Below are positions 2,712-63,166 of a stretch of DNA of 64,000 bases, in pieces. The stretch spans positions 1,733,216 through 1,797,215 of the forward strand of contig CAJINV010000002.1 of assembly GCA_905178155.1 (NCBI GenBank), read 5' to 3'. Every line of letters begins with the position of its first letter. Position 1 is the first letter of the stretch. Origin of the DNA: Amoebophrya sp. A120 (lineage: Eukaryota > Protista > Dinoflagellata). The notes beneath the pieces were generated by a model that saw nothing but the letters and a program-made list of their open reading frames with translations, was not told the origin of the DNA and did not search any database. The translations under genes and the position numbers were made by a program.

Positions 2712-5700
2712 TCATGCCAAATCTTCCAAATCAGAATAGTCCTCACCAGCCAAAACATGCGGCAAAAGCTTCTCGCAGTCCTCCAAACTCCGCTTTGTCG
2801 GGTCAATGTTCAGAATACACCGCAAAGATTTTTCGTACTCCCAAGGCCTCACCGCGTCTTCGCTGGTCCAGGAAACCAGTGGGAGGTGCGACTGCTGCGA
2901 CGACGCTATCCCAGAAGACACGCCAGACAAGTGTTGCGGATGGATCGGGTTTAACGCCGGTGTGTTCGTAGGGATCACGTGGTTCGCTCGAGCGTGGGAA
3001 AAATCGAATTCATAAGGGACTTTCTTGTCCAGACAATTTTGAACCTCCTTCGGGGTATTCAAAACCGCGAGCCAGTGCTCTAGTCTCTCCGCCTCTCCTT
3101 CATTCTTCGCGCTTTTGGTCAAATCGGTGCCGTTGGTGAAATTGAGTGTTTCGTTGAGTAACAAAAGCACCTCCCCGTAGTCGTCCTCCAACAAATCATC
3201 AGCTGTTTTGTTGAAAGCTTGCTGGGTATTTGTTTTGTTTTTACTCTGCTTGGCCGACGATGTTGTGTGAACCTCTCCCGGCTGCTTCGACCCGGGGGCG
3301 AGTTTTGCTGACCCAGGAGGCCCACTCGCAGGAGCTACTGCTGGAGTGTCGGTGATCACCTTCCCTGTATCCGCGTCGATCTCCACAATCTTCCCGTGCC
3401 TCTTCACCCGTTTTCGCACCACACGGTCCTTCAAAAGAGCCGGATCCTCCACGGGAGAATCCGACCCAGAGCCATCCGAGGGGTCGGGTGAGCTCTGGTC
3501 GGGAGTGCCTTCGTACTGGTTGTCTGGATTGTTTTCGTAAGATTGATACTGGTGTTCCATCTCCATGTAGGAATCGTGTGCATGACAGCTTGTTCCGTTT
3601 GCAATTTTCGGTTTGTTCTCTTCTTCCGCTTCCATGAGCTGCTCCTGTTCCGCCTTTTCCCGCTCCTGCACGTGCTGCAACACAAGTTGCGTCGTGGGGT
3701 TCTGCTCAAGGCCGAAGATCATCTTGTAGAGGATAATCCCGCAAGCCCAGTAGTCAGATTTCTCGGTAACTGGGTTGAAGGAAAAGTTGCAGGAGTCCTG
3801 TTTTGATAGCGATTTAGATATTGAAAAATGCATTCAACGTAGTACGTCGCATGCGAGGTAAAAATAGCATGAGAATCTTGTCCAACAGTGGGAAAACTGC
3901 ATTGCAAATTTTGAAAAAACTTGAATACCTCCGGCTCGTCGTCGCTATCGTCGTCACTCCCATCGCCGTCTCCTGACCCTTCCTCACCGTCGTCAGCTTC
4001 TTCAGATTCCTCCTCAGCCTCCTCGGATTCCTCCTCCTCTTCTTAAGGTATGGATTGCAAAACAGCTACACAAAGTTAGGGCGAGTTTTGAGTTTGCCAT
4101 GCACTGACTGTGGCATTGCAAATGCAAAAAAAGCTGCAAAAACTACGGACATACGCACAATTTTTCGCATCACAAATTCCGCATCGTTAAACTGTGTAGC
4201 CTAGTTTTGCATTTGGATACCTTCCTCATCGTCCTCGTCCTCTTCCTCACTCTGCACCGCAAACGGGATTTTTACCCTTTCCGGCTCGACCCACTGGATC
4301 TTGTACAAACAGCAGTCCTTCCCCTCCCTCCTACAAGCACCCAAGTCGATCGTCTTCAGCGTATCGCTACTTCTGCAATACACAAAGTTTTCAATCGAAA
4401 CATCGCCGTTTAAACACCCAACCCGTCTATGCACCTCCAACGTTCCGTGGATGATCATCTTGAAATACCGGGGAATGTCAAACGTTTTCCCGTGCTGCTT
4501 GTTCTTCAGCCAATCGCTCATGTCGCAACTCCCCAACTCCATCACGAAAGCACGCAAGTTTTGGCTCGGAACGACATAACTGCAGACTAAGCCGATGATG
4601 TACTTGCACCCTTTCTCCGCGGCGATTCTGAGAAATTCTAACTCCCGCTCGTACTCCTGTGTTTCCTCCGCAACGTCTTTCGCCGATTTCGGTTTTTTGT
4701 TGAAATGTAGGGATTTCCGGACCCCGAGGAGAATACGGGTGTGGTTGTCGTCTCCATTGTCGGTGTTCTGGTGAGTGGAGCTGTTTTTTTTCTTCAAAAC
4801 TTGGTTGTAAGACCCATTTTTTACGGCGTAATGAGATGCATGGCCACCGTTTCCATTCCCGTTTTTGTGCTTCATGCTGTTCCGCATTTTGTGTTTCGGT
4901 TTGTTCAAATCGAGCAACGCCTTGTGCGCGTCCTCGTACCGTTGTAGTTTGTCCGGAGAGATTAAACTCTGAAGGTTGAAGTTCTTGTAATCGCCGAGCT
5001 TCTCGTCATTCTCGTCCGTGTCAAGTTTTAGGAGAATTTTGTCCACGGTCGCGATGGACTGCAAATCCTCCGTTACCATATCATCGTGGTCGAGATCTTC
5101 CACCGTTTCTTGGAAGGTGGTTAAAACGGTCATGTCCACCTTCTTCCTGATTTGTGGGATCACGGCAGAAGCAGTTACCGGAGCATCTACTTCACCAGCG
5201 GTTTTCGTCATTTTGGGACTGTCAACCGCGGGAGGAAGACTGGTGGTTTTCTGCATCACTGTGTAGTCGAAAGACGCGGGCTGCGCCGGGCCGATGTGGT
5301 GTAAGTTTGTTTCGGAGGGGTGGTTTTTGAAATGGAATTCGCTGTTGTTGTTGTAGTTGTTGTTCACGTTATGCAATAACATGTCGTTGGAGTTGGTATT
5401 CACCGCATTGTTCAGAATGATTTCCATGTGATCACCACCGCTTGCCCCGGCCGGCCTTTTGTTCGGGCTCTGCTTCCCATTCCCGTAGTTTAAAGCGTTG
5501 TGAAAATCAGCGAGCTTCTGACGTGGTGAGACCTCGTTTATTGTCGTGCTGTACATAGCAGATGAGCTGTTGTGATTGTCATTCCCAGATGAAACGACAC
5601 TCACGTAGTTAAACTCCGGATTCTGCTTCGTATACAATGTATACTCCGCCCCATTGCTTCTCCACCCGGAGCCTGCTTTTGTCAAATGCTGCCCGGCCGT

Positions 5701-8700
5701 CTCCTTCTCCACCAATTTCGACTGCTCGTGCGCGTTTTTACTTTCAATCGGGTGGTGAGACGTTTTCACGTGCCCATAGATTGTCATGTTGGACAGTTTG
5801 CTGAATCTCAACCTCGTCTGCGCCCCCACCCAAGTCCAGCTTGGCTCAATCCTCGCTTGCGCGGCCGCTTTCCAGTGAACTCTGCGTAAGTTTTGTTTCT
5901 TCCTTTCCAGAGCGGTTAGATAGCAGTACGTGTCAGAAGTGTTGTAACACACTCTATACCCGTTCTCCGTTTCCCGGAAGTGCTGCGCCGGGACTCCGCA
6001 GACTTGGCAACAATGCAAAACCGGTCTTGCAGCGGTCACGTTATGTGGAATCATCAAACCATGCGCCAGCAACGGATTCATCCTCGCCAACAACGTCGGC
6101 TGCATGAAAAATTTCAGATTCTCCCTTAGTCTCAACAAATGCAACGTCGTCTGCTCCTTCAGCAACTCATTGATGCTCATCCTCTTCTGATTCTGCTGCG
6201 GAGTGGCCAAAGTCGTTGTGCTTTCAATCCTTCTTTGCTTGCTATGCTCCTGAATCTGCTCTTCGGATAAGGTCCTTGGTAAATGCACCGCCAACGCCTT
6301 GGAACTCTCTGCTCCCTCCCGCGGCGACTTCATGTTGTTGCTCGCGTTTGAAGAAACTTCCCATGCGGATTGCGCTTGTAAACTGTTGTTACTGTTGTTC
6401 TGCGCGACCAGTTGCTGCTGTTTCTTCACGTGGACTAAGTTCTGGATCCTGCGCAGAAAATCCCGCATGTGCTTGTCCTTTTTTGTTTCCGGATCATCGT
6501 GTTCTTGATGTACTAGACCCCCTCCAAATTCCGACCCCTGGCTCATCCTAGTACCACTGTTGCGAAGAGCAGCTGCAGCATCGTTATGATCGTTGTAATG
6601 ACCACTGCTTTCCCCCGTGAACCGATTGTAAGAAACCCCGCGCTCCATCAAAGCCAAATCGATCCTGTTGATGCAAGCCGGCGGGACCACCGTCGGCGAA
6701 TCCTCGTCCGCCAGCATGCTGCACCACAAAATCGACGCTTCTTCCGCGAGTAAAATTGCGTGGTCGTAATTCCGCTCCTCCAACTCGATCGTCGATAAAT
6801 TCAACAAATTCCGAAAGCAATACGTCACCATCTGCCGGAAGAGTTGGAGTTCCCTCTCCTCAATCTGGTTCTTCGTGGATTTCTTCGTCGGAAAGAGCAA
6901 TTTGTTCAACCGGGAGGACTGGAGCAAAAACTTCTGATACCGGGATATCAAAACTTTCCACTGGGTTAATAATTCCAGCAGTAATTCCCGGATTCCCGCC
7001 TGCTCCACATCCAATTTTTGATTCATTGCAGCGAGCTGTTGTGTTTCCTTCGTCGATATGGATTGCAAATATGTCTGGGAGTCTGGAAACTTGTAATGCT
7101 GCGTTGGGAATAGGGAATGCTCTGCAAATGCAATGGTGCGCAGCCAAGCATGAGAAATGTCTGCGCTTCTTTGTGTTGCATTTTTCGCATGGCAAACTGC
7201 GTTTTTGCATGACAAACAAAAGGGCGTCTTCTTGGACACGCATCACAAACTTTTTTAGTCCTGCCAGACAAGCATGACAAACCTTGCATCCTTCCAGACT
7301 CAGACATATTTGCAATGCATAGTCGACCCGGGTAGGGTAAAATCCTGCATCTCGTCCGGTTTGGAATACTGCTTGATATCCCCCATGTGGCGGGAGATTA
7401 GAGATCCGATCTTACTCGACGGGCTGGTTAAGAGGGAAGACTTGCTGCTGATCGGGCCAGTACCAGTACCAGCAGCCGCAGCAGCGGAATTCGACGCGAC
7501 CAACTTCCTGCTGTGCTTCCGGAGAGAGATCCTGTGCTTCAACAGTAAGTGCTATGAGAGTGCACAACTCCCTCTCCCCCTCATTTGTAATGCAAAATAC
7601 CCAATCTTCCACCCTGTGCCTCTTGACACGTTTAGCGTGACAAGTTCTGGAAGCCCAAATAGCACTACACTCCTTCGCAAATTTGTCATGCAAAACCTGC
7701 ATTCTTGCTGGCACGTGTATTGCCGTTCATACTATACAAATGAGGGGGAGGGGGGGTTGTGCACTGTCATAAGTGCGTCAGCATGTGGTCTTCGTGCTTC
7801 AAATGATCTAATAATCGTTCCAAAGTCTCCATGATCTGGGAATGATGGAGCAAAAAACTCGTCCCGGTGCCGGTGTCGAGCAAAGAATTGTGGTCGTGGA
7901 TCTGCAGTTCGTCGATGTTATTTTTCTTGCTGTTCGAGGGGGAGCCGGATCTGCTGGTAGAAGAATTGTTGTTCGTCCCACTATTGATGTTCTTACTCCG
8001 CCCGCCATTCGCTGCTCTCCGGACTGCGTCGGGTTTCAGAGACTGTAAAAACAGTTCCCTCCGTCTCTCTTCAATTTTCTTTTCCACCCGTTGCTGCACG
8101 CGTTTCACCCGATTCCTGGCGTTTTGAAGTCGCTCTATCGACCTTTTTCCGGAAGATTTTTTCACGATAGTGTTCACTCGCTTGTTTTTCGGGCCAGGTT
8201 TCTTCTTCTTGTTATTTCCTGCCGCTGCACCGGGTTTCTTTCCTCGACCCATTGGCGTGTTCATTTTTTTCCCGCCTTGCTTTTGGTTCATCTTTTTCAT
8301 CGCGGGTGGTGCAGCTTTCATCTTATTTCCCCTGCCCTTGTTTTTTCCCATCTTCTTCATCGATAAAGTTTTCTGCCGCTTCTCGTAGTGGATTCTTTCC
8401 CGGTGCTCCACGATGACGTCGGTTAGAGACTGCACTTCGGAAAGCAACGTCGTGAAGTCCTCCACGTGGTAGCAGTACATGGAGTTGTCGGAATATCGCA
8501 AGAAAAACCTGTTTCACTGTGAACTTGTGATACAGAGGAAGCAGCATAAAAGTGTTTGTCTTGCTACACATGCAAGACGGTGACGGTGGCTTTTTAGCCG
8601 TTTTTTGCCTTCGGGTGCATGCATGGCAAATTTTGCCTGTCATGTCGAACTAACTTGTGATGCAAAACTTGCAACAAAATCCTCACCGTGAAATACTTTA

Positions 8701-9312
8701 TTTACCGTGCGATACCGAATAGTCCACGATAAACCCGTACTCCTTCCACCTGGGATGCGTCAACGCAACCGCTTTCGCGAGTTTGTCGAATTTGGTGTTT
8801 TGCTGGGCCTGCTGTTGTTGAGAAATTGCGGAGGTTGCAGCTGTTCCCATAGCAGTCGCACTCGAAGACGACGCAGTACTACTCCCATTCCCGTGCGTCG
8901 TGACGGATACCATCTGTTCCTTCACAATTTGGTCTCCCTGCAACTTCCGCACAGCACTTCTTCTCATCGAGTGCAACACGGAGTCCGATTTCGACATGTC
9001 CCCTTGTAACAACCTGACATTCTCCAAACTCAACTTAATGTTCCCCTGCCCGCGAATCACCGACTTGGATCCATCGACCTTGTAATTCTCCAATTTCTGA
9101 AACCGGACGGAGATGCCCGTCCAAGTACCGCTGATCCAGAAAAAGCCGTAGTCCGCGGCGGAAAAAACCCGGTAATTCGTCGCATCGGGCTGCTTCCGTT
9201 CGAAAAAGAGTCTCCCCCCGTTGATCAAAATTTTATCCACGTGCGCCTTGTGCTCGGTGAAGCCGTGGGGGTTGAGAGATTGTTGGTCCGGGTTGAGGAG
9301 GTAAACGTTCAT
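2712..9312 (-). CDS. Large divergent Ser/Thr protein kinase, 6 exons, ~1,856 aa
   Basis: Exons ~9312-8715, 8493-7772, 7552-7322, 7056-4221, 4041-3929 and 3797-2712 join in frame (5,571 nt). Kinase motifs: YERELEFL, NGDVSIENF, KTIDLG, SDYWACGIILYKM, LNIDPTKR. Confidence 0.8.
3798..3928 (-). other. Canonical GT-AG intron
   Basis: GAG|GTATTC...CAAAACAG|GAC, frame restored. Confidence 0.8.
4042..4220 (-). other. GT-AG intron built on a degenerate TIR element (4049-4219), TSD lost
   Basis: G|GTATCC...CCTTAAG|AA. Inverted ends tatggattgcaaaacagctacaca / tgtgtagcctagttttgcatttggata. Confidence 0.75.
7057..7321. mobile_element. Family A introner (TIR core tgtctgggtctggaa)
   Basis: TIRs, perfect TSD gtcga, join G-S-T-K in frame. 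Confidence 0.92.
7553..7771. mobile_element. Family B introner (TIR tatgasagtgcacaac + C-runs)
   Basis: TIRs, perfect TSD agtgc, join T-H-L-L-L-K. Confidence 0.92.
8494..8714. mobile_element. Family E introner (TIR core tgtttcactgt)
   Basis: TIRs, TSD cggaa/ccgaa, join D-Y-S-D-N. Confidence 0.88.
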
Positions 9313-10444
9313 TTTCGCGGTAGATCTTCGATGTAGTTCGATTTGAGAAATAAACAGAGGGCTGACAGTTGGATAAATTATGAGGATGTGTATAGTGCCG
9401 AAAAAATACGAGAATGAAAAAATTACACAAAAACAACACTAAGTTCTCGAATAAATGAAATGGGGGGTCGTGGTGTTGAAACGCAAACGCCAGTAGCCAG
9501 AGGTTTCGACCTGCTGGGTCAAACCTGTATCGCAAAGAAGGAATTATTGGTCAACTATAGAAATACTGAAAACCTCCTCCGAAAACAAAACAAAATCTTA
9601 CGGAAGGCAGAAGACCGATAAGTTGGAGCCGCGTGAAGAACCCCTGCGCAGGGGAATGAGACCGAAGCATGGCTTCGCAAATTCAAAAACCGATATTAAT
9701 TTCGTTGCGTCATGAGCTGCTGCCCACTGCAATGAAGTAATCCGACCGGGTTGTGGCAGACACAATAATGACCGAGGAGCGGAAACAACAACTTTTGTGT
9801 GTTCTTTATCGATGAAGAACCGATCCGAAATACAACCGAATGTCGCCTGGCGAAGGGCTGCAAGAGTGATTTGTACAGCTAAAAAATGGGGAAGATGAAC
9901 ACGAAAATCATTCGCGAAAAGAACAAATAGGAGCTGTTTTGTCTCTACAGCATCACTCAACATTTGATGGTAGCCGAATTTTTTTACGTTTCACTTTAGT
10001 TGTTATCGGACGACCAGCAGATAGTACTCTATTAATACGCCACCGAATAAGACTGCAGCAGCGCTGATATTTTGGCCGACAACTGTTCCAGCGTATAGTA
10101 GTTTTTTCTTCCAACAAGAAGCGAATTTCAGGAATCCGAATCCTAAACAACAGAAAGAATTTGAAGGTGAACAACTCGTCGTGTGTTTTTGTTTTTCCCT
10201 ATCTTCTTTACAACAGAATACAGCGGAAAAAAATAGACCTCTTAGAATCGAGAACTGGTTTTCATCTGAATTCTCAAAACATACCCAGTCTATTGCTTAT
10301 TTTGCGGAAAGCTTGTAACGATATCAATGACAAGCACACCTCAAGCAGTGTGGCATTATGCGGTTTCGTGATTCGATTTCGAAGGCACCAAATCAATGAA
10401 ATTTTACAGAAAGTAGATCATTGGTGCGGCTCAAAAACAGATAA

Positions 10445-10628
10445 GAGTGAGGTAACAAATTCCTCCGTTAAGTTACCCGGTTCCCAACCGCCAGCCCGTT
10501 CCAGCGGATCGGACCGTTCCGTTCTCCGGATCCCGGATCCCGGGAACCGGGTAACTTAGCGTCCGGCGGCCGGCCGGACGCTAAGTTACCCGGTAACAAA
10601 CTTAACGGAGGAATTTGTTACCTCACTC
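10445..10628. mobile_element. PIF/Harbinger-like MITE with nested palindromes
   Basis: Perfect 30-bp TIR gagtgaggtaacaaattcctccgttaagtt, taa on both sides, internal 21-bp-arm hairpin at 10547-10593. Confidence 0.8.
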
Positions 10629-11079
10629 TAATATCACGGAAAAAATAGTTCTAAATATTTTGATTCTATGTGTATGCGGATGCTGTCGTCTTTTAGGTGG
10701 GTGAAACGGCTGCACACTGCGTGCAATATAACATAGTGCTATAAGTACCACTTGCACGATTTAGAACGATCATGACCTCTTGAGAGCAGGTAAAAATGCA
10801 GTGCGTTCGTGGCCCTGGCCCTTCTTGTAAATTGAAAAAAGTCGTAACATGCTCTATTCTAAACTCATCTCACGCTCCTTGTCGCCTGATAAGGCATGAG
10901 AGAATCGGGCCCACGAGTTGTAAACATAGAGATACTATATTTCTGGCATATTTCACTTTCTTTACATCGAGTATATCCCATATCCATGTTTATATCTTAA
11001 TTTTTGTACTGCTATTCATTTGAAGATATCGCCTCGTTTATTACGTTTCTAGGTATCAGATCGTGCAGTTTAATAGTAT

Positions 11080-11117
11080 AGTCGAACCGTCTAGCAGTAG
11101 CAGTCGAACCGTCTAGC
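11080..11117. repeat. Short direct repeat (agtcgaaccgtctagc x2)
   Basis: 16-mer repeated with a 6-nt spacer. Confidence 0.8.
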
Positions 11118-11639
11118 GCCGGCCAAAATTGAAATTATCGAAGAAGCAATATTTGTCGGTGTTCATACATAATTATCAATGAGTTAAGGTGCAGAGGTGA
11201 TAGAAACATCCAGTTTCGATCAGATTTCAAAAAAATCGTGACCAATCTTTCTAATTTTAGAAGTAGGTAAGTAGCATGGTTCCATCACCACCTCGAGGAC
11301 AAATGCACCAGCAGATTACACCATGGCGCTTGTAACATTACGACGAAATCGGAAGCCAGTTACTCATCGGAGCTAAAATGATCTCGCGTTGAAAAAAAAA
11401 AATGAAAAGAGTAGGCAAAGCGATGGAATTATGTCCCGTTGTTGAAGGCCCTGTGAAGAGGACTCCTCTGAAGATGTTAAGACTATTCTGTCCCGCTGCT
11501 GAATTTCGTATAGTCCGTCGTGTCTATTTGATGTTGGCCGAAAAAGGAGTTGTACAGCTGTGAATTGTAACAATCTCCATGGGATATTATCCAAATCGCA
11601 GCGCCGAACGTCTTGAAATGTTTGTGTACTACGTATCAT

Positions 11640-24234: not shown

Positions 24235-24699
24235 TTTCAAAAACTTGGCGTGCGAAAAAAGATCTTTATTGTCGAGAACGTAAAAGACAAAGATAGAGAA
24301 AACGAGTCTCTGAAAGGAAAAGGCGTTTGCGTTTCATTACATTTACAGTTGTCGGCCTAAGCTTAAGCATTAGCATTACTTATTTGAAAAAGAGTCGTGA
24401 CAAAACGCCAAATGGAATCTGTCAGCGTACCGTAGCAGGCCCTAAGTTTTGTTCCTGGGTTAGGTAGTGAGGTTGCGTTGGCTGAAAACGGAGACGCAAG
24501 GGTTGTGAGCACCACAAGGCCCGACGGTGAGAACGAACGCTGCTGCATGTCTGCCACGGGGGTGAAAACAGTTATGGCAAGTATTTCGAGAGCCGCCGTC
24601 GTGCTGCCACACTCATGCTGAAAATGAAGAATGCGCGCAGTCGCAGAGATACGAGAGGCAACGATCTTGCATCCATACCTGCCGCACTTGCGCCGATAG

Positions 24700-25530
24700 A
24701 TTGCTTCTGCCTTGGCCGCTGCGCTAGTTTGCCCGTGGGCCAAGCTAGCGCGCGGGGGCGCAAGCGAGTTGGGGGGCCCCGGGCCTCCTAGCCATCCGCG
24801 ACAACGAGCCAAGGGGGCCCGGGGCGGCACGATGATGGCGGACCGGGGGGACCCGAAGTCAGGGCTCGGTAGGCAGACTTGACTGCCCTGCGGGCGGCAA
24901 AAAGGCCCCCAATGAACCGGCCCGGCCGGCCGCCCTTTCGATGGCGGCGGGCGCATAAGATGGGGGAAGGGAACGAAGCGGCGCCGGCATGGTGCGCACC
25001 CCCCCCCCCCCCCCGACCCCACACGCCCGGGCGCGCGGGGGGATGGGGAAGCCGGCGCCGCCGGCCCAGTCGGGGGCGGCGGCCGGCAAATTCGCGGGGG
25101 TCGGGCGGCGCAAAACGATCACCCGCGGCCGCCCCCCGGCCCGGCTTCGGCATATGGCGGCCCGCTTCGTTTTTCGGGTATTCCCCTCGCCACTCCGGTG
25201 CGCCAGGAAAAGCGCGCCGCTCACCGGCTGCCGCCCCTAGCCGCGGGAGCCGGAGAACGTGCGCGCCGCGCCAAACTTGCGCGGCCTCGCCGAAAAAGCT
25301 ACGCGCACCACAGCGCCCCCCTAGCACACCCCTCGGCCCCCCAGGGCCCGCCCCCCAAATGGGTCGGGCATCTGCACCAGGCGCGTCCGCTTCCGCGGGC
25401 GGGCCGGCCACAGCCGGCGCCACAACAACAGCAGCGCCGAACTTCGCGGCCCCGCTGCATTAGGATGGCCGCGCCCTTAGGCGCGCCGAGAGCTCCCGCC
25501 TTTTATGGAATGGCCCGCGCAATAGGCCAC
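24700..25530. other. Very GC-rich intergenic island
   Basis: Abrupt compositional shift with G/C runs and no credible ORF. Edges approximate. Confidence 0.6.
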
Positions 25531-52100: not shown

Positions 52101-55100
52101 ACCGCACTTGCTGGGCGACGGTTTTGGCCTGGCTGGCGTCAGGACTGCCTGAATATGCTCCGGAAGAGGAAGAAGACGAGTTCGAAGCGGATGGATCAGT
52201 TGCACTACCACCGGGCACTCCTACTGCGGAAGATGGTCCTGCGCTACTACCGCTACCCGCATTTCCTCCAACCTCGCTGCTGATATGCCCCTTCAACTCT
52301 TCCTTGTCCGCTTCCATCTGCTTTTTCAAATCGGTTTGGAGTTGGCCAGAACTGCCTAGCAAACTTGTGAGCTTCTTCTCCACGGCGTCCGCAACTGCGG
52401 CAATGCCCTCGTCGTCCACTGCAGAGTTAGTATTTGTTTTTGCGCCAGCGGAAGGGGAAGAAGAGGACGCAGATGGCGAAGTACTAGCAGTTCCGTTAGT
52501 ACCACTCTGGGTGGTCGTATTAGAAGCTGCTGCACTTTTCGCATTAGCAGCTTTGTTTTTCGGTTGCGTATGTACAGGAACATAAGTCGGCTGAGGAGCT
52601 GGCTCGAACTTGTCTAATTCGGTCGAGATGTGGTTTTCCAATTCGGTGGTTAATTCGTCTTTCATATGGATTGCAAAAGTGTCTGGGTCTGGAAGATTGC
52701 CAGGTTTGTCATGCAGATTCTGCATGATTCGCGACGCCTGTAATGCATGATCTAGCATCACAGATTTGTAAAGGGCTTCCTAATGCCTATCCCGCATGAG
52801 CAATTCCCTCTCCGCGTAACACAAACTGGACTCCTGTTGCTGCTCATGCAATACAGATTTTTTTGGAATCCAAAGACAGCACTACAAGTTCCAAGCTTCC
52901 GGACCCAGACATATTTGCATTTGATACTTTAAATTCTCAGCGGTCGTCGTCATGTCCTGTTTCAAATCCTGCTGGAGTTCCCCAGTAGGAGCGAGTAAAT
53001 TCGCTAGTAATTGCTGGACCTCGTGTATCCAGGAAAAAAACTGTGTAAGTGTAACTCTGTGGGAGGAGCAGCATCACAAATTTGTTTTGAATTACAGGGA
53101 AAACCTGTCATGCGCACCTAGTACGTGAAAAAACGTATGAAATACGGCAATGACGCACGTCCAGCATGACAAGTGTAACTGTTTTGCATATTCTGCATCA
53201 CAGACTTACACTTACTCAGTTTTTTTGTGGCATATCGTGGGTCACGTGTTGGGCGATCTCTGCGGCGGTGAAATTCGCGTCGCTGATGTTCACTGGGTTC
53301 GGCCCGATGTCGATAGGTGTGCTGGCTGGAGTTGTGCTAGAAGTATTATCACCGCTGGTGTTACCCGCCGGGCTGCCGGAGTCAGTCGTGCCTGGAACAC
53401 CCGAAGAAGAGCCACTCTTAGAACTTGCCGAGCTAGAACCTCCAGATGAACCACCTGTATTGCTATTACTGCTAATCTCTTGCTTCAGACTGTCTGTGTT
53501 GTGGGTCATTTCGTGTTTCAGCATTTCCGAATTGCTCGCCATTTCGTGCTTCAAATCCTGCTGTAACTGACCGGAAGAGGAGAGCAAGTTGTTCAATAAT
53601 TGTTCCACAACCGTTTTCACCTGACTCGCCACCGCGGTCGCGTCTAGATTTGATGATGATGGTTTTCCTCCGTCATCGCTCTCGCTTGATGCCCCGTCGC
53701 CGGCTTCATTATCCTCGCCCGAGTCGTCTCCCGAACCATCGTCAGGTGCTGGCGCAGGTGAAGCAGCGGATTTACCAGAAGGCACGGTTGTAACACTAGG
53801 CGCTGGCGCCGGTTGCACGTCAATGTTGTTAATCTCGTGTTTCAATAATTCCGCATTGTGTGCCATCTCGTGCTTTAAATCCAGTTGCAACTGCCCACTA
53901 GACGACAACATCTCTAACATTTTCTGTTCCACAGCGGAAACGATTTCCGAAGTGTTCACAACGGTCGTGTTCAACCCAGTACTGTCCTGAATGATGTTCG
54001 TCACGTGGTGGTGGTCGTGATGCGCGTAGTTGTTCACCGTGTTGGTCGTGTTCAACGAACTCAAATCCAGTTTCGCTGCACTTAAATCCAGATTCGACAA
54101 TTTATCCTCCAATTCGGTGGAAAAATCCTGCTGCACTTCCGTCCGGATATCAAATGCAAATATGTCAGGCGGGTCTGGGCTTGTGCAAGACTTGTAATGC
54201 TCCACTAACAGGAGACAAAGATCTGTCATGCATGTTGCGCTACCGCGCTGCTTTTTTGTAAATGCAAAAACGCAGTTTCTCATGCAGTTTACGCAAGACC
54301 TACAAGTCGCTCAGATACTTGTCATGCGTTTCCCCATGTTGGAGGATGCTTGTGAGCTGCAAACATGCATCACAACTTTCCAGACCCAGACATATTTCCA
54401 ATACATACCGGATCTCCGTTTTTAATTTGTCCGCGTTCGTCGCCATTTCCGTTTTCAAATCGGTTTGGAGCTGGCCGTATCAAATGTAAAAATGTCTTGG
54501 TCTGGAAGGGTGCAACTTGTGATGCTGCCTTTGGATTCTACATAAAATCTGTCTTGCATAAACAGGAAAAGAGGTCCAGTTGTTGCTACGCAAAGACGGC
54601 ACTTCTCATGCGGTAGGAGCATCAGAAAGCTCTCGCAGAATCTGTGATGCTAGGCATGCATCACGATCACAGACATCATGACTCATGGAAAATATGCATG
54701 ACAAGCCTTGTATTCATCCAGACCCAGACATATTTGCATTTCATAGGCCGGAAGAGGAGAGGAGCTCAATCACTTTTTGTTCCACTGCAGTGGCGATTGC
54801 GTCGGTGTCGATAGAACCACTGCCACTGGAACTGCTACCGAAAATGCTGCCGCTGCTGTTGTTAGAAGAAGAAGCAGAACTAGATCCCCCACCATTGTTC
54901 GCCAGCGCGTGCGCCACCGAATCCTCTAAAGAGTCCATGAAATTCTGCACGGTGACTTCCTTTGCTAGTGTCCCGACCGTGGATTCTTTCGCGACTTTTT
55001 GATCCAAAGTGCCTACCGCGGTTCTCAAGTCCGACACGTCGGCTTTGATGGTGTCGAGGTGGTCTTCCGTTAAGGTCCCAACAGACTGAATCAAAGTGTC

Positions 55101-58100
55101 CAGTTTCGAAGCGAGACTGGATTGCGCCGTGGTGATGGCGTTGAGCTGTTTTATTTGGAGATTTTTACATGACAAGGAGATCCACTCATGCGAAAGTACG
55201 CATGACAAACTTTACAAATACAGATTCAAAGCAACATTACCTTGATATCCTCCGCATCCAGTCTATTGTTGATCTTCACCAATTCATCCGTCGTCGTGCT
55301 CCCAACGTCTAAACTCTTCACTTTCTCCCGAAGCGAAGAAGAAGAGGTCAACGTCTCCTTGTTCGCCACCAAACTGTGTGCCGGGACTAACGGTATCGGC
55401 TTGAAATACTTCGGTGGTTCGTCTTGTGGGGGCGGCGGGTTTTCCCCTTTTTGTGGGGGTGCTGGCGGCTTCTCTCCCTCTTTTTCTTTGTCTTTTTTAT
55501 CCTTCCCCTTCTCGTGCAGATTCGGTTGTGGGTTCTGCGCATGGTCGTTCGAGTCTATAGTCTGGTGCGGCGGGAGAACGATCGGGGGTTGTTTGCTATT
55601 TTTACTGCCAGGAGGTTTTGTCGTTTTAGTTCCCTTCGTGCCGTGCGGCTTTACATCCTCCTCTTCTTTGGGTTTTTCATCGTTGTTTTCCCCCGCCGCA
55701 GCAGTACCTCCAGGAACACCAGAGTGCTCTTCTTCAGTTTTATCCACACCGCCGTTCCTCAGCGTGTAGCTTTTGACATTTTCATTTAACGTCGCCGCAG
55801 AAGTTTTAGTAGTTTTTGCCTCCTTCCTCGCCACCGACATGGCCGCAGCCATCTGATCCAAATAGCTCGCACCAGATCTGCTTATTCTACCGGTTGCAAT
55901 TTTGCTCATGTGGATTTCGTCTAAGCCAGCTTCTTGCACGGGGGAAAGATGTTGGAGGGGCGACAAGTGCTCGTCGTGGGGATGATTATGTAGTGGTGTT
56001 GGAGTTATTTCTCTTTCTGATGCGCGGCTTCTCTCCCCTTTTTCTACTTCGTCGTCCTTCTCCTCTTCCCTCACCGCCGCGGCGTACTTTTTCGCCTTTT
56101 TCGCCACTTTTTCCAGCGTGATTTGCTTCTTCTTGTAATCTTCCGCCACGGCCTTCGAAGGCATCTTCAGTACGTAGTCGAAATTTTTATGGTGTTTTGT
56201 TCCACCCTGGAGGTACTCGTGCTTCTCGGGTTTCTGCATGAGCTATTAAAACCTTGAAAACGCTCCCCAGGGAAAAAATGCAAAAATGTATGTTGTCACA
56301 GATCCGAATGCGATGCTGATGTGGCGCGAAGTTATAAAAAATGCATACGGCTTCTGCTTTCTGCTTGCGCATGAGAAAAAATAACTGGTTGCTCCTCAGA
56401 CTACGACATGCAACTTCGCTTCGTATATGATAAACCCTTTATCCTTTCTGAGGCACGTGTTCATCAATTTCTTAGTAGCGTCTTGTCCATCATCTCCTGA
56501 TATGCAAGCTCCGGTGTCAAAAACGGTTTTTCCTGTTCCCCCCCTTCGTTTTCCGCATCTTCCCCTTCCTCCAGCATCTTATGAGTGTCGGCACTGCTCC
56601 TATGCTTTTTTCTCCTCCGTCGTGCACTCGCTTTCTCCGCTTCTTTTTCTTCTTCATCACTGTCTTCCTCCAAATCTTGGTATCTGCTCCCGCTTGTTCC
56701 CCCCTCCCCGGAATCGCTGCTCCTCCTGTGTCCCCCCTCCCCGGAATCGCTGCTCCTGTGGTGGCTTTCGTCTCTTCTCTCCCGCCGCTGGCTCTTGCGG
56801 ATTAACGTCGCCGCGTCGTCCGCACTCAAAGCGGGAGGAGTGCCGCGGGGGCTTCTTTCCGCCGGGTCGGGGAACGCGTTTGGGTAATGCGAAGATCTCG
56901 CGGATGAATGGGAATTGTGACGTCTACTTGGAGGCACGGGAACGTAGTTATGCGGCAAATTTCCGGCGCCCTTGCCGTTGATGGGCGCGTGCACACCGTT
57001 GGGGCGGTAACCGGGCATCTGCTTCGATGATGAGGCCGTTGTTGTTTGGTCTTGGATCTTTAGATCCTTTTCTTCTGCTTTCATCTCTTTTACCAGTTCC
57101 GACGATGTGGAAGAAAATTTTTTCCTGTCTTGGATCTCCGTGTTGACCTTCGCTTCATCAAGACCGAAAATTTCCTTCGCCGCAAGAAGCGCGTGCTGTT
57201 TTGCCTTTTCCAAACCGGAGAGATGAGCTACTTCCGCGTTAGGTCGTGTGGTTTTGAACACTGCTCCCGCTGAACCTGCGTCATCTGTAGGAATTTGGTC
57301 TCTTCTTTCTGGCCCCGACTGCTCCACCTTCTCGACGGGAGGTTTTACTGCCATTTCGCGCTTCGAAGGCAGGTCCAGAATTTCCGAAACCGGCGACGTC
57401 TTGCTGGTCATTTCGGAAGGCAGTTGCTGCTGCTGCTGATGTGGCTTGTCCGAAAGCTCGCTTTCACCAGTCAGCTCCGGATTATGTCCCTCCGAAACGT
57501 CAAACGGGCCCGCTGCAAACTTCTGGCGCTGCTGTTTCTCTAGTGCAGCGAAGTCTACCATATTGTTGTCATGCGCCGCAGATGAAGATCTCCCCGCTGG
57601 AGTGGTTCTGATCTCATCTCCACTTCTTCTGCTCGTCGACTTCATCACTCCGTGGTCTGTTTTCTTCACCCAACTATTCCCTCTACTCCGAACGAAATTT
57701 CCGGAAAAAAGTTTGTTCCCCAGCATGCGCACCAACGGCACCATTCCGGCTCGGCGGTTGTACGAACTTCTGATCGCCTCACGACGGAAGCGGTCTCTCC
57801 TGCTGCGTTTGCTACTGTCATCTTGCTGTGCAGGAGGAGCCTTGGCTCCCCTAGCAGACCAAGAGGACGGCCTATTTTTCCTGTTGTTGTTCTTTCCCTC
57901 TCCGGAAAGAAGAACATCGGAATAAACGGAACTTGTGCTCGTAGTTGTAGGACGACTAGCTTCGGTCGTGCTGCTTGGTGGTACTAGTCCAACGTGGTCG
58001 ACACGGTTCTCGAACACTTCCCCGAGCTGTCCTGCGACGGTGTGAGGAAGTACAGAATCATGCTGGTAGGGGATTTTTGCATCTTTCTCCTTTTCGGTAC

Positions 58101-58266
58101 TTCGCCGAGCTTGCTCTTCCCCCGCAGCAGTCGCGGCAGCCGTGGCAAGACCAACGAGAGGGTAGTAGTGGCTCGTCCATTGGACGAAAAATAAAAGCGT
58201 CGCAGTTGTTGTCGGCAAGAACGACAAGCGGGGACTAAGAAAAGGCCGCCGCTTCCGGTTTCTCAT
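46122..58266 (-). CDS. Giant repeat/coiled-coil protein with S/T/G-rich linkers, possibly secreted; ~2,237 aa from ATG 56239, or ~2,825 aa if the 58266 exon is joined
   Basis: Thirteen introners and two GT-AG introns removed give a 6,714-nt frame from 56239. Joining the upstream ORF via a GC-AG intron at 56243-56505 is plausible but uncertain. Confidence 0.72.
47411..47662. mobile_element. Family A introner
   Basis: TIRs, perfect TSD cgccg, frame restored. Confidence 0.9.
47832..47972. mobile_element. Family C introner (degenerate)
   Basis: TIR remnants, TSD ctgcg/atgtg (2 mismatches), frame restored. Confidence 0.78.
48115..48393. mobile_element. Family F introner
   Basis: TIRs, TSD gcctt/gcttt. 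A GC-AG reading is possible. Confidence 0.9.
48525..48625 (-). other. Canonical GT-AG intron
   Basis: CCG|GTATAG...CAAAACAG|CAA, frame restored. Confidence 0.75.
48974..49203. mobile_element. Family E introner
   Basis: TIRs, TSD ctaac/ccaac, frame restored. Confidence 0.88.
49367..49645. mobile_element. Family F introner
   Basis: TIRs, TSD caccg/gaccg, inverted relative to the 48115 copy. Confidence 0.9.
49859..50066. mobile_element. Family E introner (in frame, stop-free)
   Basis: TIRs, perfect TSD tcttc, 213 nt including one TSD. Confidence 0.9.
50807..51058. mobile_element. Family A introner
   Basis: TIRs, perfect TSD ttctc, frame restored. Confidence 0.92.
51228..51481. mobile_element. 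Family A introner
   Basis: TIRs, perfect TSD catcc, frame restored. Confidence 0.92.
51642..51890. mobile_element. Family A introner
   Basis: TIRs, perfect TSD ccctg, frame restored. Confidence 0.92.
52665..52926. mobile_element. Family A introner
   Basis: TIRs, TSD tttca/cttta (2 mismatches), frame restored. Confidence 0.88.
53026..53234. mobile_element. Family I introner (singleton; TIR core aaaaaactg.gtaagtgtaa.tctgtg)
   Basis: TIRs, perfect TSD tcgtg, frame restored. Confidence 0.9.
54148..54407. mobile_element. Family A introner
   Basis: TIRs, perfect TSD ccgga, frame restored. Confidence 0.92.
54478..54745. mobile_element. Family A introner
   Basis: TIRs, perfect TSD ggccg. The join restores the protein repeat SSSGQLQ. 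Confidence 0.92.
55146..55240 (-). other. Canonical GT-AG intron
   Basis: AAG|GTAATG...AAAACAG|CTC, frame restored. Confidence 0.78.
56243..56505 (-). other. Possible GC-AG intron (or a short intergenic gap)
   Basis: CTT|GCATATC...TAATAG|CTC keeps the frame. Introner-like length and a gcatgagaaa motif, but no clear TSD. Confidence 0.4.
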
Positions 58267-58659
58267 GCTGCCTGGAACTGGATGTAAGGTTTTCGCAGTT
58301 CAGGGTCGGTCGCTATCGTCCATCCTGTGAAAAAAACTTCTCGCTCGGCGGACGAGAGCGACCTTGGGATGACCTGGTCATAAAGGTCAGACTGAGCTAG
58401 GCTTTTGTTGGCCTTGGGATAGTACGATTGCGCAACAGAATAGAAAGAACAACTTTCGCTCTAGAGGCTTCTCTGTGATACAGCACTCCGACGTCTGGGC
58501 ACTCGCAAAAGGCCAGACACCGTCAAAAACTCCTCGCTCATGAACTGCTCTCAACATGGTTTGCTGTTGTGCCTTGTCTTTGGGAACACGAGACAGAACT
58601 AAGGAGGAGGCACATACACAAGAAGCGATGCGCGCAGGAATCCGCGGCGGAGCAGAGTG

Positions 58660-60100
58660 AAGCGCTACAGACATAGCGCGTGGGCGGCTGGGTGGCGGAA
58701 CTGCCGAGTGTGTTATCTAGTTACAGAGCACCTTGCAGGGAGAGACAGGACAACGACCGCGCCCCGCTTCGTGGACGACGAAATCAGCGCCACCCGCCCC
58801 GCCCCCCCCCCGGCTGCATGGCACGGTTAACATACAATGCGCCCGATGGCTGTCTGCGGTTGCTTGAGGCGGCAGCGGGCGGGCGCGCGCCTGGAAACAT
58901 AGAGACACACCGACCGACCCACCCGCCACAGAGGCTGGCGGGCCAACGGGGGAGCCGGCAAGCCGAACGGCCGGGGCGCGCGAGACTTCTGCCGGGCCTC
59001 CGATTGTTTGCCGGGCGGCACGCGGCGGGCCCAGACGGCGGCTGCGCCCTACACTCACACGCCCAGCGAACGGCGCGCGGACGCCGGCCCAGGTCGGTGG
59101 GCCACACACACAGCAAGGGGCCGGCGCGGGCGGCGCGGGCCCAAAAGCCGCCCCGGAGGAGAGGCACGCAGGCGGCGGGCGCGGCCGCCCCCGGGCACGG
59201 GCCAATCAAACAATCGGCACAGCACAAGGCTGCGCACTCCGCCTGCGTAAAGGAATCGAGCGCAAGCGGAAAGTTCGCAGACGGATCCGGCTCCTCCAGG
59301 GTAGTCGGCCGACGAATCGCGCCGCTGCGCTGTGTAACGGGCAGATTTGACAAAAGCTCGTAATGCACGCCGGCGGCGTCGCCGTAGACGCCGCCGTAGA
59401 CGCCGCCCGGCCCCAGCCGTCCACAAATACTGGGCCCCTGCGTGCCGGCGCGCCCAACCCCCAAGCGCCCGGCCTGCTGCCGGGCGAACAGGCCAACGGC
59501 CCATCGATCAAGGGCGGCCGGCCGGGCCGCGCCAGGCCGGCAGGCCCGAAACCAGCCGGCCGGCCATCGCCCGGGCGGCCAGCCCGGGGGGCCTGCAGGG
59601 TGTGGCCGCTCAGTTAGCCGCGGGCTACACCACCTCGCGCAGCCTTTGAAGTGCACCTGGTCAGCTTCGAGAAGTGATTCGCTGGGCCCCGCCGCGTAGT
59701 AGATTACTTTGCCGAAACCATCGCTGACGTTTGACTTCCGCCCGCGGCGCTCATTTCACCAAGCTCAACGCGGTCCGCCCTTCACTCCCGCGCGCCTGCC
59801 TCGAGCAACTGAGCGGCTACATAGGGGCACCGGAGGGCAGGCGTGCCCGCCGCCCCGCCAAGATCGCCGCGGCCATCTGCGCCGCATCCGACTCCGCACG
59901 CGGCGACAGGGGGGCAGCGAAGCAGGTGGCCACGCTGGGGCACGTTGCTAGCCCCTGCGAGTGCTGGGCCGCCTTGTAGGCGGCCACAGGGCCCGGCCCC
60001 CCGTGCGGGCGGGGCGATTAGCTTGGGCGCCTGCGCCACCATCCCGCGCAGCGGCCGCCCTAATTGCACCCCCCCCCCCTGGGCTTGCATGCGCGCGAAA
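58660..60100. other. Very GC-rich intergenic island
   Basis: Composition only. Edges approximate. Confidence 0.6.
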
Positions 60101-60504
60101 TTGCAAACCAAGAAAGCGCTACGAAGCATGCGCCTGGAAGAAAAAGAACAACGCCGCTCGGATGTGTCCGGTGAGAATGCACAAGCAGTGAGCCATGTGC
60201 AAGAACAAAACAACGCACAGCAGCCACGGCAGTGGTGAACACTTTTTATCGAAACTCCCAGCGAATACACAATGTAGCTAAAGATCAAGCCTTGGTAGTT
60301 GGTGCATCAACGAATATCTCAAATCCGATATCGCAAAGCGTTGCCATCAGTCAAGACGCAATGCCACATCAGAGCTGCAGCAGTGGCGCTGCGTGATGCA
60401 GCATGTCGCAAAAAATGTTCAGTTCTTGGAAAATTTTCACGACACTCCAGGTAGCTTCAGGAACTTGTGCCACTACATTTATCACTTTCTTCGTCCTTCC
60501 TTCA

Positions 60505-63166
60505 TCACCTCTGAAACCATTCTCGATTCCACTCTGGCATTTGCAGCGACCCGCCTTGCTGTTTTATCCTTTCCGCTGACAAGGTCAAGCATTCATACCC
60601 GTTTTCCGTGACCAGAAACGTGTGCTCAAACTGCGCACTGCGGGCTCCGTTCATGGTCACCGCGGTCCAGTCGTCGGGCCAAATGCCGTCGTGGCTGTTG
60701 TTCAACCCCAGATTGATCATCGGCTCGATGGTGAAAATGTGCCCCGGCTTCATGATCCCCGGCACCTTCGAGCCCTTGTAATGGGGGACCTGTTTTGACG
60801 ATTTTCATGATAATCGAGTTTGTCATGGAGCAATGGTGATAACAGCAGGCATTTGCCATGCGGAACAACAACCCAAAAGAATAGTGAGTACAATCGCGTG
60901 TGCCAAAACATCAATACCCCCACCAGCAACAATCAAACCTACATACCTGTGGCGGCCCGTGAAACAATTTTCCGACTCCGTGCCCACAATACGCTGTTAC
61001 CACAGAGCATCCTCTCCCCTCCGCGACCTTTGTTATCTGATTCCCCACCGACCGGTATAATGTTCCCGGCTTTATCGTCTTTGCCGCGGCCAACAGCGCG
61101 CTGTAGGCGGTTTCAACTAGTTTCGCGGACTCCTCAACTGTTCTTTTCTTCTCGTCCGGCAGTTTCTCGAAATACTCCGGGTCGGTGTAGGATTTCCCGA
61201 CCAAAAAGGTTTCGTTCAAATCCGCGTGGAAGCCTCTGCTGTAGACGGAAATGTCCAAGTTGATGATGTCTCCGTCCTCAAACGGCCGGTCGTCCGGAAT
61301 GCCGTGGCAAATCACTTCGTTTGCGGACACACAGACGGATTTGGGGAACCGGTAGTAGTTGAGGGGGGAAGGGTAAATCCGGCGGTCAATGCAGGCTTGG
61401 GTAATGATTTTGTCAATCTGGTCCCCGGTCACGCCGACGCAGACGTAGCTGTATTTGCAGTTATGAAGTGGATGAGCGGTGATATCTTTTGTCATACGGA
61501 ATTTCAACGCAGAAGCACGGGGCGCGGGCGCATGCTGCGTTTGTAAAACCGATCATGATGGTGATGTGTAGTGGGGCGCGCGAGGTGCAAGCTACGGTGC
61601 GCAAAGCTGTTTGAAATTATATGGTTGTCAGCACGATGCAATTTCTGATATCGACTCCGAATGGAATTTGTCATGCGTGATGGAACTGCAGAGAAAAATC
61701 TGTTTGACACAGTAGTACCAAGTTCCAACACTACGAAAAGATAGAAGTGTGCTTGGGTCGCAAATTGTGCCATTTATTTTCTGTAGCGGCAACATACCAA
61801 CACGTTGTTGCATTTTGAGAGCAACACGTGCAACTAGGAGCGCATATTTCGGTTCCTTGTATTAGTGCATTAGAAGACCCACTGCTCTTGCAAAAATGAA
61901 AATTTGCATACTCATACGAAAAAATCAAGTATAAGAGAACGAGTACCCGCTCGCCAAGTCCAGCACGTCTCTTCCCAGCCGGCACACTTCCCGCATGATC
62001 TCCAACTCGTCGCCCTTAACCACCTATCAAATGTAAAAATGTCTGGGTCTGGAAGAATGCCAGGTTTGTCATGCATATTTTGCATGACACATGATGCCTG
62101 TAATGCGTGGCCTAGCATCACAGATTTTGAGAGGGCTTTCTGGTGCGTATTCCGCATGAGAAATGCCCTCTCCGCGTAGCACAAACTGGACTCCTTTTGC
62201 TGGTCATGCAATACAGACTTTTTTGGAATCCAAACACAGCATCACAAGTTGCAATCTCCCAGACCCAGACATTTTTACATTTGATACCACCGGCACCACG
62301 TTTTCCGGGTGCTGCTGCTCGGAGAGACAATGTCCCTCTGGGTGGTCCGCGTAATCCGGGGCCTCGATGTAATCCGGCATCTTGACCTATGCATTGCAAA
62401 TATGTCTGGGTCTGGAAGGTTGCAACTTGTAATGCTAGCTTTCCATACCTAGTAAATCTGTATTGCATAACCTACAACAGTCGCAGCCTCTTTGTCTTTT
62501 GTTCATACAAACAACTTCTCATGCGGATTGCCCATGAGAAACCGTTCTGGAAGGTTGTCATGCTAGGTTGGATTCGGGACTGTTTCCATCATCCACATTT
62601 TAGCATCAGAAGTTTCCAGACCCAGACATATTTGCAGTTGATATCACCTGTTTCATCACCTTCCCGGGTCTCAGTTCCCCGCTAAAAACATACTCCTTCG
62701 GTCTCCTTCTCACCCGCCCTGGGGCCTCCCAATACTCGGGCTCTGGTTGCTTTTTCCCCATTTTCTTCTTCGCGGTGGTTATTGTAGTCGCTGACGTGGC
62801 CTGCTCGGATGATGGGTTATTTTTATCGCCGTTACTTGGTGCAGCTGCTGGGGTAGGAGGTTGTGTCGGTGCTAAACCCAAAACGTTCATGGCCCAGTCG
62901 TCGAATTTGAGAACTTCCTCTCCATCCTCATTGGTGTCCCAATACGCGCCGCGGAGCTTCTTGTTCCCCTTCTTTTTCGCCTTCTTCTTCGCATTTTTTG
63001 ATTTTTTCGCTGCGGAAGGCTCGGCGTCTTGTTGATCGGCGGTTGGGTCGGTGGGAGCATCGGCTGCGATTTTTGCGTCAGTTGCTGCTGCCACATCTTC
63101 CATAACAACATCTTCTGCTGCCGCGGGGTCTGGCTTCGCCGTTTTCTTCTTGCCGGCGGGAGCCAT
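60505..63166 (-). CDS. METAP1: Methionine aminopeptidase type 1, 5 exons, ~492 aa
   Basis: [75 protein letters not shown]. Joined frame is 1,479 nt. Confidence 0.95.
60790..60946 (-). other. Canonical GT-AG intron
   Basis: CAG|GTATGT...CAAAACAG|GTC restores P-Q-V-P-H-Y. Confidence 0.9.
61449..61946 (-). other. Canonical GT-AG intron
   Basis: GG|GTACTC...ATACAG|C restores S-G-Y-V-C-V-G-V-T. Confidence 0.85.
62025..62286. mobile_element. Family A introner (GT-AG compatible)
   Basis: TIRs, perfect TSD ccacc. Confidence 0.93.
62388..62643. mobile_element. Family A introner (GT-AG compatible)
   Basis: TIRs, TSD tgacc/tcacc. Confidence 0.92.

What the first reader, a model, noticed from the sequence alone, without database searches (positions are those of the whole stretch)
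3798..62643. One motif, GCAT(G/C/T)ACAAA and its complement, marks all intron classes including canonical ones
Seen: gcatgacaaa/gcatcacaaa/gcattacaa and tttgtcatgc/tttgtgatgc recur several times on both strands in families with unrelated TIRs. Variants also occur in the GT-AG introns (e.g. 30241, 31109, 42838-42895, 48557, 48589, 55200, 60819, 61667), and by eye they are rare in exons. Six of nine GT-AG donors read GTAT, i.e. G plus the TAT terminus. Inference: either a general intron-definition or protein-binding signal, or the canonical introns are aged introners.
Basis: partly seen in the sequence, partly recalled or inferred. Interest (0 to 1): 0.75.

Follow-up and report, generated by a model that had tools for sequence, protein, structure and literature searches.

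The report
Introner DNA motif in short introns
A short DNA motif, repeated in step with the turns of the helix, sits in nearly all transposon-made introns of this marine parasite and in its short ordinary introns but not in most longer ones, which likely makes it a docking site for the enzyme that moves the elements and a tag for ordinary introns that likely began as such elements.

Summary
GCAT(G/C/T)ACAAA occurs 41 times in TIR introners, 5 times in plain GT-AG introns and never in 52 kb of exon and intergenic DNA. All 8 plain GT-AG introns carry a strong site, 6 as a same-direction pair 32-34 bp apart. The anatomy matches the published Amoebophrya A120 introners.

'Marks all introns' fails: in a sister genome only 10 of 47 predicted plain GT-AG introns carry the 8-bp core, mostly short ones. 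GTAT donors are common with or without the motif (11 of 16; 20 of 39), so they do not show descent.

The motif behaves as a DNA site. It has no strand bias, sense and antisense copies decay alike (4.39% vs 4.36%), and it is phased about 10.4 bp from element ends. Best reading: a subterminal transposase site, with motif-bearing short GT-AG introns being aged, converted introners (0.5). They keep no TIR, target duplication or family likeness, so a host DNA-level intron mark stays open (0.2).

The parts
3798..3928 (-). plain GT-AG intron (131 nt); variant sites GCATGAGA 3867-3874 and GCATTGCA 3899-3906, both reading on +, 32 apart
   Evidence: frame restoration only; sites
4042..4220 (-). GT-AG intron that is itself a TIR element (G+TAT donor), no 5-bp target repeat left: an intermediate form
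   Evidence: frame restoration; TIR
30199..30331 (-). plain GT-AG intron (133 nt); core site 30241-30248 and variant 30275-30282 on +, 34 apart
   Evidence: length deduced from contig coordinates of X4 record 3, open frame, sites
31040..31159 (-). plain GT-AG intron (120 nt); one core site 31110-31117 (reads on -)
   Evidence: skipped in X4 contig
42800..42928 (-). plain GT-AG intron (129 nt); exact 10-mer 42837-42846 on +, core 42888-42895 and variant 42856-42863 on -, 32 apart
   Evidence: skipped in X1 contig
48525..48625 (-). plain GT-AG intron (101 nt); exact 10-mers 48556-48565 and 48589-48598 on +, 33 apart; orthologue L056:1646-1754 keeps one, has one substitution in the other, spacing 38
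   Evidence: joint in X4; alignment
55146..55240 (-). plain GT-AG intron (95 nt); exact 10-mer 55200-55209 and variant 55167-55174 on +, 33 apart
   Evidence: frame restoration; no RNA joint shown
60790..60946 (-). plain GT-AG intron (157 nt) of a methionine-aminopeptidase-like gene (label from my reading of the translation, no database call); two one-mismatch sites 60821-60828 and 60854-60861 on -, 33 apart
   Evidence: joint in X1-X4
61449..61946 (-). plain GT-AG intron (498 nt) of the same gene; one exact 10-mer 61667-61676 (reads on -)
   Evidence: joint in X1-X4
7052..62643 (.). 21 copies of the largest TIR introner family (about 260 nt, one with one TIR lost at 20457-20692), 2-7 motif sites each
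   Evidence: family clustering; sites; joints for 47406, 50802, 51223, 52661, 62019, 62383
12519..40302 (.). 4 copies of the about 150-nt palindromic family (12519, 19369, 38130, 40148); pairs 31 apart
8489..50066 (.). 4 copies of the about 210-230-nt family (8489, 13770, 48969, 49854)
   Evidence: joints for 48969, 49854
39799..49646 (.). 3 copies of the about 280-nt family (39799, 48110, 49363); pairs 31-33 apart
   Evidence: joints for 48110, 49363
7548..53234 (.). further families: 7548 and 38374; 15348 and 17796; single copies 32702, 36416, 39333, 47828, 53021
   Evidence: joints or contig gaps for 32702, 36416, 47828, 53021
900..1214 (.). remnant of the 15348-type element with only one TIR; exact 10-mers at 944 and 1027
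   Evidence: splicing not determined

Best explanation
The motif GCAT(G/C/T)ACARR is likely a double-stranded DNA binding site for the protein that mobilises these introners, and the short GT-AG introns that carry it are likely old introner insertions converted to ordinary splice sites. Shown: the motif is intron-restricted, lies on either strand, comes in same-direction pairs 30-35 bp apart, is phased about 10.4 bp from element ends, is conserved across unrelated family interiors, and decays equally on the sense and antisense strand after insertion. Inferred: a transposase (or its cofactor) binds these subterminal arrays on one face of the helix, so every family that keeps them stays mobile; splicing reads the element tips (cut one base before TAT, four after ATA), not the motif. 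Inferred, weaker: some fixed copies gained GT and AG, shrank, lost their hairpin ends and took on host-like T-rich/A-rich ends, leaving the motif pair as the last trace.
For: 361 of 376 introners, 19 of 22 families, carry the core. 148 of 175 motif columns are near-invariant against 293 of 924 other interior columns. Outward-reading sites cluster at 36-38, 46-48, 56-58, 67-69 and 78-80 bp from the end (33 family-level values, R 0.46 at 10.25 bp, p about 0.001). Sense 138/3145 vs antisense 144/3305 mismatches (p 0.95), while the terminal three bases show 4/726 and 6/726. Copies with a decayed target repeat show a 2.5-point excess of motif mismatches, against 3.0 for TIRs and 3.5 for other conserved columns. 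In GT-AG introns: strand 9:11; pair in 8 of 16 (null 1.2); 10 of 20 exact sites at introner-like distances from the splice sites (2.6 expected); 9 of 12 introns of 135 nt or less vs 7 of 43 longer (p 0.0003, threshold chosen after seeing the data). The orthologue of 48525-48625 has one site mutated and spacing 38. Simulated decay of 0.2-0.3 changes per site lowers the end-to-end repeat score to 19-15.5 (observed 17.75) with 41-27% still holding a core. Farhat et al.: 24.8% of A120-specific intron positions are canonical. Precedents: hAT subterminal repeats (PMC10368747), fungal ILE decay (PMC3609843).
Against: Motif-bearing GT-AG introns show no excess over motif-free ones in TIR score (5.75 vs 5.56 of 20), target-repeat score (2.1 vs 2.05 of 5), likeness to 22 families with the motif masked (p 0.82) or exon-flank remnants, and do not fold (z -0.4 vs -8.2). 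Their end composition is the reverse of introners'. Pairs survive in 8 of 16, against 12-19% expected from neutral decay. 7 of the 10 well-placed sites read inward, whereas introner end sites mostly read outward (my reading). In four orthologous introns motif bases differ less than the rest (5/91 vs 57/466, p 0.07). No transposase was found or tested here, and Farhat et al. reported none in A120. The window (6 of 8) differs from the sister set (12 of 51; p 0.007).
Confidence: 0.5

Rival explanations
1. A host DNA-binding protein recognises the phased pair and marks introns on the chromatin for a spliceosome that lacks U1; short GT-AG introns need the mark, and introners spread because they carry it.
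For: All 8 window GT-AG introns have a strong site and 6 a pair. Pair retention exceeds neutral decay. No other introner trace is left. Site-to-splice-site distance is shared. Orthologue trend p 0.07. U1 was not detected (PMC7789003). Strand symmetry fits a DNA mark equally well.
Against: 37 of 47 sister GT-AG introns lack the core and show no pairs. 15 of 376 introners lack it. Motif bases mismatch at 4.4%, in the range implied by target-repeat decay (6.1% summed over two copies), and at least five times the rate of the terminal TAT/ATA. One of two sites and the spacing are lost in an orthologue.
Confidence: 0.2
2. Old GT-AG introns took up introners (or fragments) inside them, which then eroded by deletion; the splice sites are ancestral and only the motif is element-derived.
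For: Host-like ends and no TIR at the splice sites. Several sister GT-AG calls hold whole nested introners, e.g. L034:15170-15662, L017:81-677. The 498-nt intron 61449-61946 has one central site.
Against: Motif-bearing introns are shorter, not longer (median 133 vs 193 nt, p 0.007). Site positions track the splice sites. Window intergenic DNA holds no such relics.
Confidence: 0.15
3. The motif works on RNA: a branch point (T-n-A-C resembles the recalled yUnAy consensus), an snRNA-pairing site or a hairpin helix.
For: The variable base sits just before an invariant A; most families present a sense copy about 40-50 nt from the 3' end whichever way they insert.
Against: Sense and antisense copies decay alike, and sense copies near the 3' end are no better kept (39/983) than antisense copies near the 5' end (35/1029). 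85 of 325 oriented introners have no exact sense core and 117 none within 60 nt of the 3' site. In 4 of 8 window GT-AG introns the strong sites are antisense only. Only 30 of 122 copies pair with an opposite copy in the predicted fold; 13 of 42 elements have one orientation only.
Confidence: 0.07
4. The sites in GT-AG introns are chance products of intron base composition.
For: None beyond the small number of window introns.
Against: 8 hits vs 0.34 in shuffles; 14 vs 1.6 in the sister set; pairs 8 vs 1.2.
Confidence: 0.01

Closest known systems
Introner elements of Amoebophrya sp. A120 (Farhat et al. 2021, PMC7789003; read: abstract, sections 5, 11, 12, 16, passages, supplement parts 2-3 of 5 as text; figures not visible)
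   Same: TAT-N7-AAA inverted repeats, short direct repeats, about 250-nt non-canonical introns removed from transcripts, many families; some canonical introns with the same anatomy.
   Different: The text I read reports no internal shared motif, no pairing or phasing, and no split of canonical introns by such a motif.
Subterminal repeats of hAT transposons bound by the BED domain (Hermes; PMC10368747, passages)
   Same: Short repeats inside the TIRs, in both orientations, bound by the transposase.
   Different: Motif here is 8-10 bp in pairs about 32 bp apart and shared across unrelated interiors; target repeat is 5 bp (hAT 8 bp, recalled); no binding protein identified here.
Fungal introner-like elements that decay into regular spliceosomal introns (PMC3609843, abstract)
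   Same: Young structured repeats that shorten and lose sequence likeness until they look like ordinary introns.
   Different: Those are described as spliceosomal introns from the start; here conversion would need new GT and AG ends and a motif pair outlasts the rest.
+4 U donor preference linked to loss of METTL16/SNRNP27K (Parker et al. 2023, PMC10581693, abstract)
   Same: Donors are GTAT/GTAC rather than GTAA; snRNP27 is listed as not detected in A120 and A25.
   Different: Shown in yeasts; METTL16 status and U6 sequence in this organism were not tested.

Membership tests
Amoebophrya A120-type introner (the 41-42 TIR elements) | TIR starting TAT, seven variable bases, then AAA | tested here: met
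   termini listed; three small families lack the full A run
Amoebophrya A120-type introner (the 41-42 TIR elements) | 3-5-nt direct repeat at the boundaries | tested here: met
   5-nt repeat; 326 of 446 full-length copies found without using it have no mismatch
Amoebophrya A120-type introner (the 41-42 TIR elements) | removed from transcripts without GT-AG | tested here: met
   14 joints in contigs of likely RNA runs, element plus 5 nt; RNA label is the tool's guess
Amoebophrya A120-type introner (motif-bearing plain GT-AG introns) | TIR and direct repeat | tested here: not met
   no excess over motif-free introns
Amoebophrya A120-type introner (motif-bearing plain GT-AG introns) | repeated family sequence; hairpin fold | tested here: not met
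   masked similarity p 0.82, fold z -0.4; library holds 22 families against 1954 published
Aged introner | intron position absent in outgroups | not testable with these tools
   no A25/AT5 gene structures held; only a 89%-identical sister
Transposase subterminal repeat | repeated near element ends in both orientations, conserved across copies | tested here: met
Transposase subterminal repeat | bound by the cognate transposase and needed for mobility | not testable with these tools
   no transposase in the window's gene models was looked for by search; binding needs an experiment
General splicing signal (branch point, snRNA or RNA-binding-protein site) | sense-strand bias and sense-specific conservation | tested here: not met
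   9:11 in GT-AG introns; 4.39% vs 4.36%
General splicing signal (branch point, snRNA or RNA-binding-protein site) | present in most introns | tested here: not met
   10 of 47 sister GT-AG introns; 7 of 31 in the strict subset
General splicing signal (branch point, snRNA or RNA-binding-protein site) | complementarity to the organism's snRNAs | not testable with these tools
   no snRNA in the window or in 7 loci; published alignments are images

The most novel reading that the evidence does not exclude
A host or domesticated-transposase protein reads a helically phased motif pair in the DNA and defines introns from the chromatin, standing in for the missing U1; it serves short GT-AG introns and lets any element that carries the pair be spliced in either orientation.
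Probability: 0.18. Interest if true: 0.88.

Novelty: new variant of a known kind. Interest (0 to 1): 0.5.

Why it matters
How A120-type introners move and how they are spliced are both open in print. The motif gives a bait for finding the mobilising protein. It also splits the canonical introns into a short motif-bearing class and a motif-free class, which makes 'where do lineage-specific GT-AG introns come from' a one-script test on published genomes. If the short class descends from introners, non-canonical transposon introns mature into ordinary ones. If the pair is a host mark, introns would be defined on DNA, which has no close precedent known to me.

Tried and rejected
No whole genome for the window, so no genome-wide count in its own organism. 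Reads were laid on 29,400-63,300 only; introns left of that rest on reading frame. TIR pattern: nothing in viral contigs, one isolated bacterial match not used (L164). Rfam: two chance-level hits in the window, none in 7 of 163 loci; the snRNA complementarity test stays open. Record search by handle not available for these loci. Periodicity of element length and of pooled spacings gave no clear single period; only the 30-33 peak and the end-distance phasing are claimed. Exonic TIR remnants beside motif-bearing introns: none. An 18/23 likeness of the 61449 acceptor region to a TIR points into the exon and is taken as chance. Introner density around motif-bearing introns: only a trend (p 0.09). 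Apicomplexan TGCATGCA lead: listing only, not pursued; that octamer is a different word. Not-in-print claim rests on searches and term look-ups; Roy et al. 2023 (Curr Biol) did not come up in any search and was not read, and supplementary figures of Farhat et al. (S25, Fig. 3 logos) were not visible.
Full report
What the window is. All genes that I modelled lie on the minus strand. Fifty introns make six gene models open end to end: 41 TIR elements, one GT-AG intron with TIRs (4042-4220) and 8 plain GT-AG introns. A gene finder that knows nothing of the motif recovered all 9 GT-AG introns, though its coding model was trained on this window, and it wrongly called GT-AG at 4 TIR elements. Contigs of likely RNA runs skip 6 of the 8 plain introns (30199 by deduced length) and 14 TIR elements. 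The TAT-N7-AAA ends and short direct repeats match the introners described for Amoebophrya A120 (PMC7789003). The organism name rests on that match.

The observation. The exact 10-mer occurs 48 times: 41 in TIR elements, 5 in plain GT-AG introns, 2 in an element remnant, none in 37.5 kb of exon or 14.5 kb of intergenic and UTR DNA. The 8-bp core is in 6 of 8 plain introns (8 hits, 0.34 in shuffles). With a weight matrix all 8 have a strong site and 6 have a same-direction pair 32-34 bp apart. An intergenic inverted-repeat element of another kind (10441-10632) holds no exact 10-mer. Six of nine donors read GTAT.

A larger sample. The TIR pattern fetched 163 loci of a sister genome; L056 is orthologous to 47,470-50,420 at about 89%. 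After removing overlaps 156 pieces (542 kb) remained; the 58 of at least 1,500 nt (473 kb) went to the gene finder. Of 376 well-formed introners from both genomes, in 22 families, 361 carry the core. Of 142 GT-AG calls, 36 were dropped for likeness to introners, and 51 of the other 106 were kept as confident; 12 of the 51 carry the core (14 hits, 1.6 in shuffles), 17 of the 106. Dropping one orthologue, two paralogue duplicates and one likely missed exon leaves 10 of 47; a stricter subset gives 7 of 31. These are predictions without RNA. Pfam continuity supports motif-free introns at L009:4523-4675 (ThiF 7-143 then 147-183), L042:10835-11127 (3HCDH_N 1-46 then 50-179) and L042:11549-11794; 77 of the 95 exons had no hit. 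So the motif is enriched in canonical introns but marks a minority. It goes with short length: 9 of 12 at 135 nt or less, 7 of 43 longer (cut-off chosen afterwards; rank test p 0.007). The window is rich in short ones and differs from the sister set (p 0.007), so a species difference cannot be excluded. One sister call (L009:2244-2376) probably has its donor misplaced and would then hold a pair as well.

GTAT. It is the commonest donor with the motif (11 of 16) and without (20 of 39, GTAC 13; p 0.37); the confident sister set was filtered on GTA, not on the fourth base. All 14 RNA-supported introner joints fit a cut one base before TAT and four after ATA, and no other register fits all. The predominant A120 non-canonical donors in Table S4 all have T second. 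I infer that the TAT tip mimics the host donor. Loss of SNRNP27K is linked to +4 U donors in yeasts (PMC10581693, abstract) and snRNP27 was not detected in A120; that link is untested here.

DNA or RNA. In GT-AG introns the core lies 9 times sense and 11 times antisense. In 242 introners of known orientation, sense and antisense sites mismatch the family consensus equally (138/3145, 144/3305), also near the ends, while the terminal three bases almost never change (10 of 1452; partly favoured by how I set the ends). Only 30 of 122 copies pair with an opposite copy in predicted folds. Same-direction spacings peak at 30-33 bp, and outward sites are phased at 10.25-10.5 bp from the element end (R 0.45-0.46, p about 0.001; paired sites are not independent). 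This fits a protein binding one face of the double helix and does not fit a branch point, an snRNA site or a hairpin.

Transposition or host function. Motif columns are far more invariant than the rest of the interior, as expected if mobility needs them. After insertion they decay: 6.3% mismatch in copies with a damaged target repeat against 3.9% in intact ones, an excess similar to TIRs and a little below other conserved columns. In four orthologous introns motif bases differ at 5 of 91 against 57 of 466 (p 0.07), which leaves room for mild selection. Subterminal repeats bound by a transposase are the known precedent (PMC10368747). I did not identify the protein; scan notes on large TAT...ATA elements with hAT-like genes are unchecked leads.

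Why short GT-AG introns carry it. For descent: the pair spacing (8 of 16, null 1.2), distances from the splice sites that match introner end distances (10 of 20, 2.6 expected; p 0.002 with one base of slack), visible decay in the orthologue, intermediates in the window (4042-4220; the half-TIR copy 20457-20692), and a published pool of A120-specific canonical introns. Simulation shows that 0.2-0.3 changes per site erase the TIR signal yet leave a core in 27-41% of copies. Against: no TIR, target repeat, family likeness, exon remnant or fold; reversed end composition; more pairs than neutral decay allows (50% against 12-19%); and mostly inward-reading sites. Descent would therefore need unsampled or extinct families plus selection towards host-like ends. 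I give it 0.5, a host DNA-level mark 0.2, nested insertion into old introns 0.15 and an RNA signal 0.07.

Novelty. The introners are published. The internal motif did not appear in the papers and searches listed under Tried and rejected, but the scan has noted it, its 32-bp pairing and the 1+4 cut in other windows of this genome. Added here: the canonical-intron census, the length split, the strand-symmetry and decay tests, and the reversal of the GTAT argument.

Noticed in passing
window 49859-50066 and L056:3451-3658: The same site, with the same 5-bp repeat, holds a 208-bp introner in both genomes, but the two are only 52-57% alike and each is 83-86% like other copies: one introner seems to have replaced another, or the site was hit twice.
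   Followed up: partly
window 47470-50420 vs L056: Four introns are shared; 48110 and 48969 are window-only; six insertions are L056-only, one of them six bases from the window's 48110 site. Turnover is fast between genomes about 89% alike.
   Followed up: partly
window 47828-47973 and 49363-49646 vs L056: Two shared introners differ at 5-8% of interior bases while four-fold synonymous sites differ at 34 of 159 (21%): whole-element constraint, gene conversion or fast synonymous change.
   Followed up: no
window 20457-20692: Introner with one TIR missing; the reading frame still needs it removed. Its remaining end reads G+TAT; the other splice site is not determined.
   Followed up: partly
window 10441-10632: Intergenic element with 34-nt inverted ends and an inner 22-nt palindrome, unlike the introners and without the 10-mer.
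   Followed up: no
window 24700-25500, 27300-28800, 58600-60100, 63600-64000: Very GC-rich intergenic blocks upstream of genes; almost no likeness among them or to the sister loci.
   Followed up: partly
window 34349-35815: An X1 contig runs about 1.5 kb past the predicted stop of the gene at 35815-44491, a long likely 3' UTR without the 10-mer.
   Followed up: no
plain GT-AG introns, window and loci: Acceptors are A-rich (AAAACAG) with no pyrimidine tract, 5' parts T-rich, and GTATAG is the commonest donor hexamer.
   Followed up: partly
L032:5946-5978, L034:15844-15875, L065:4651-4684 (gene-finder coordinates): Motif pairs 31-33 bp apart outside any called intron or known family: probably missed introns or other elements.
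   Followed up: no
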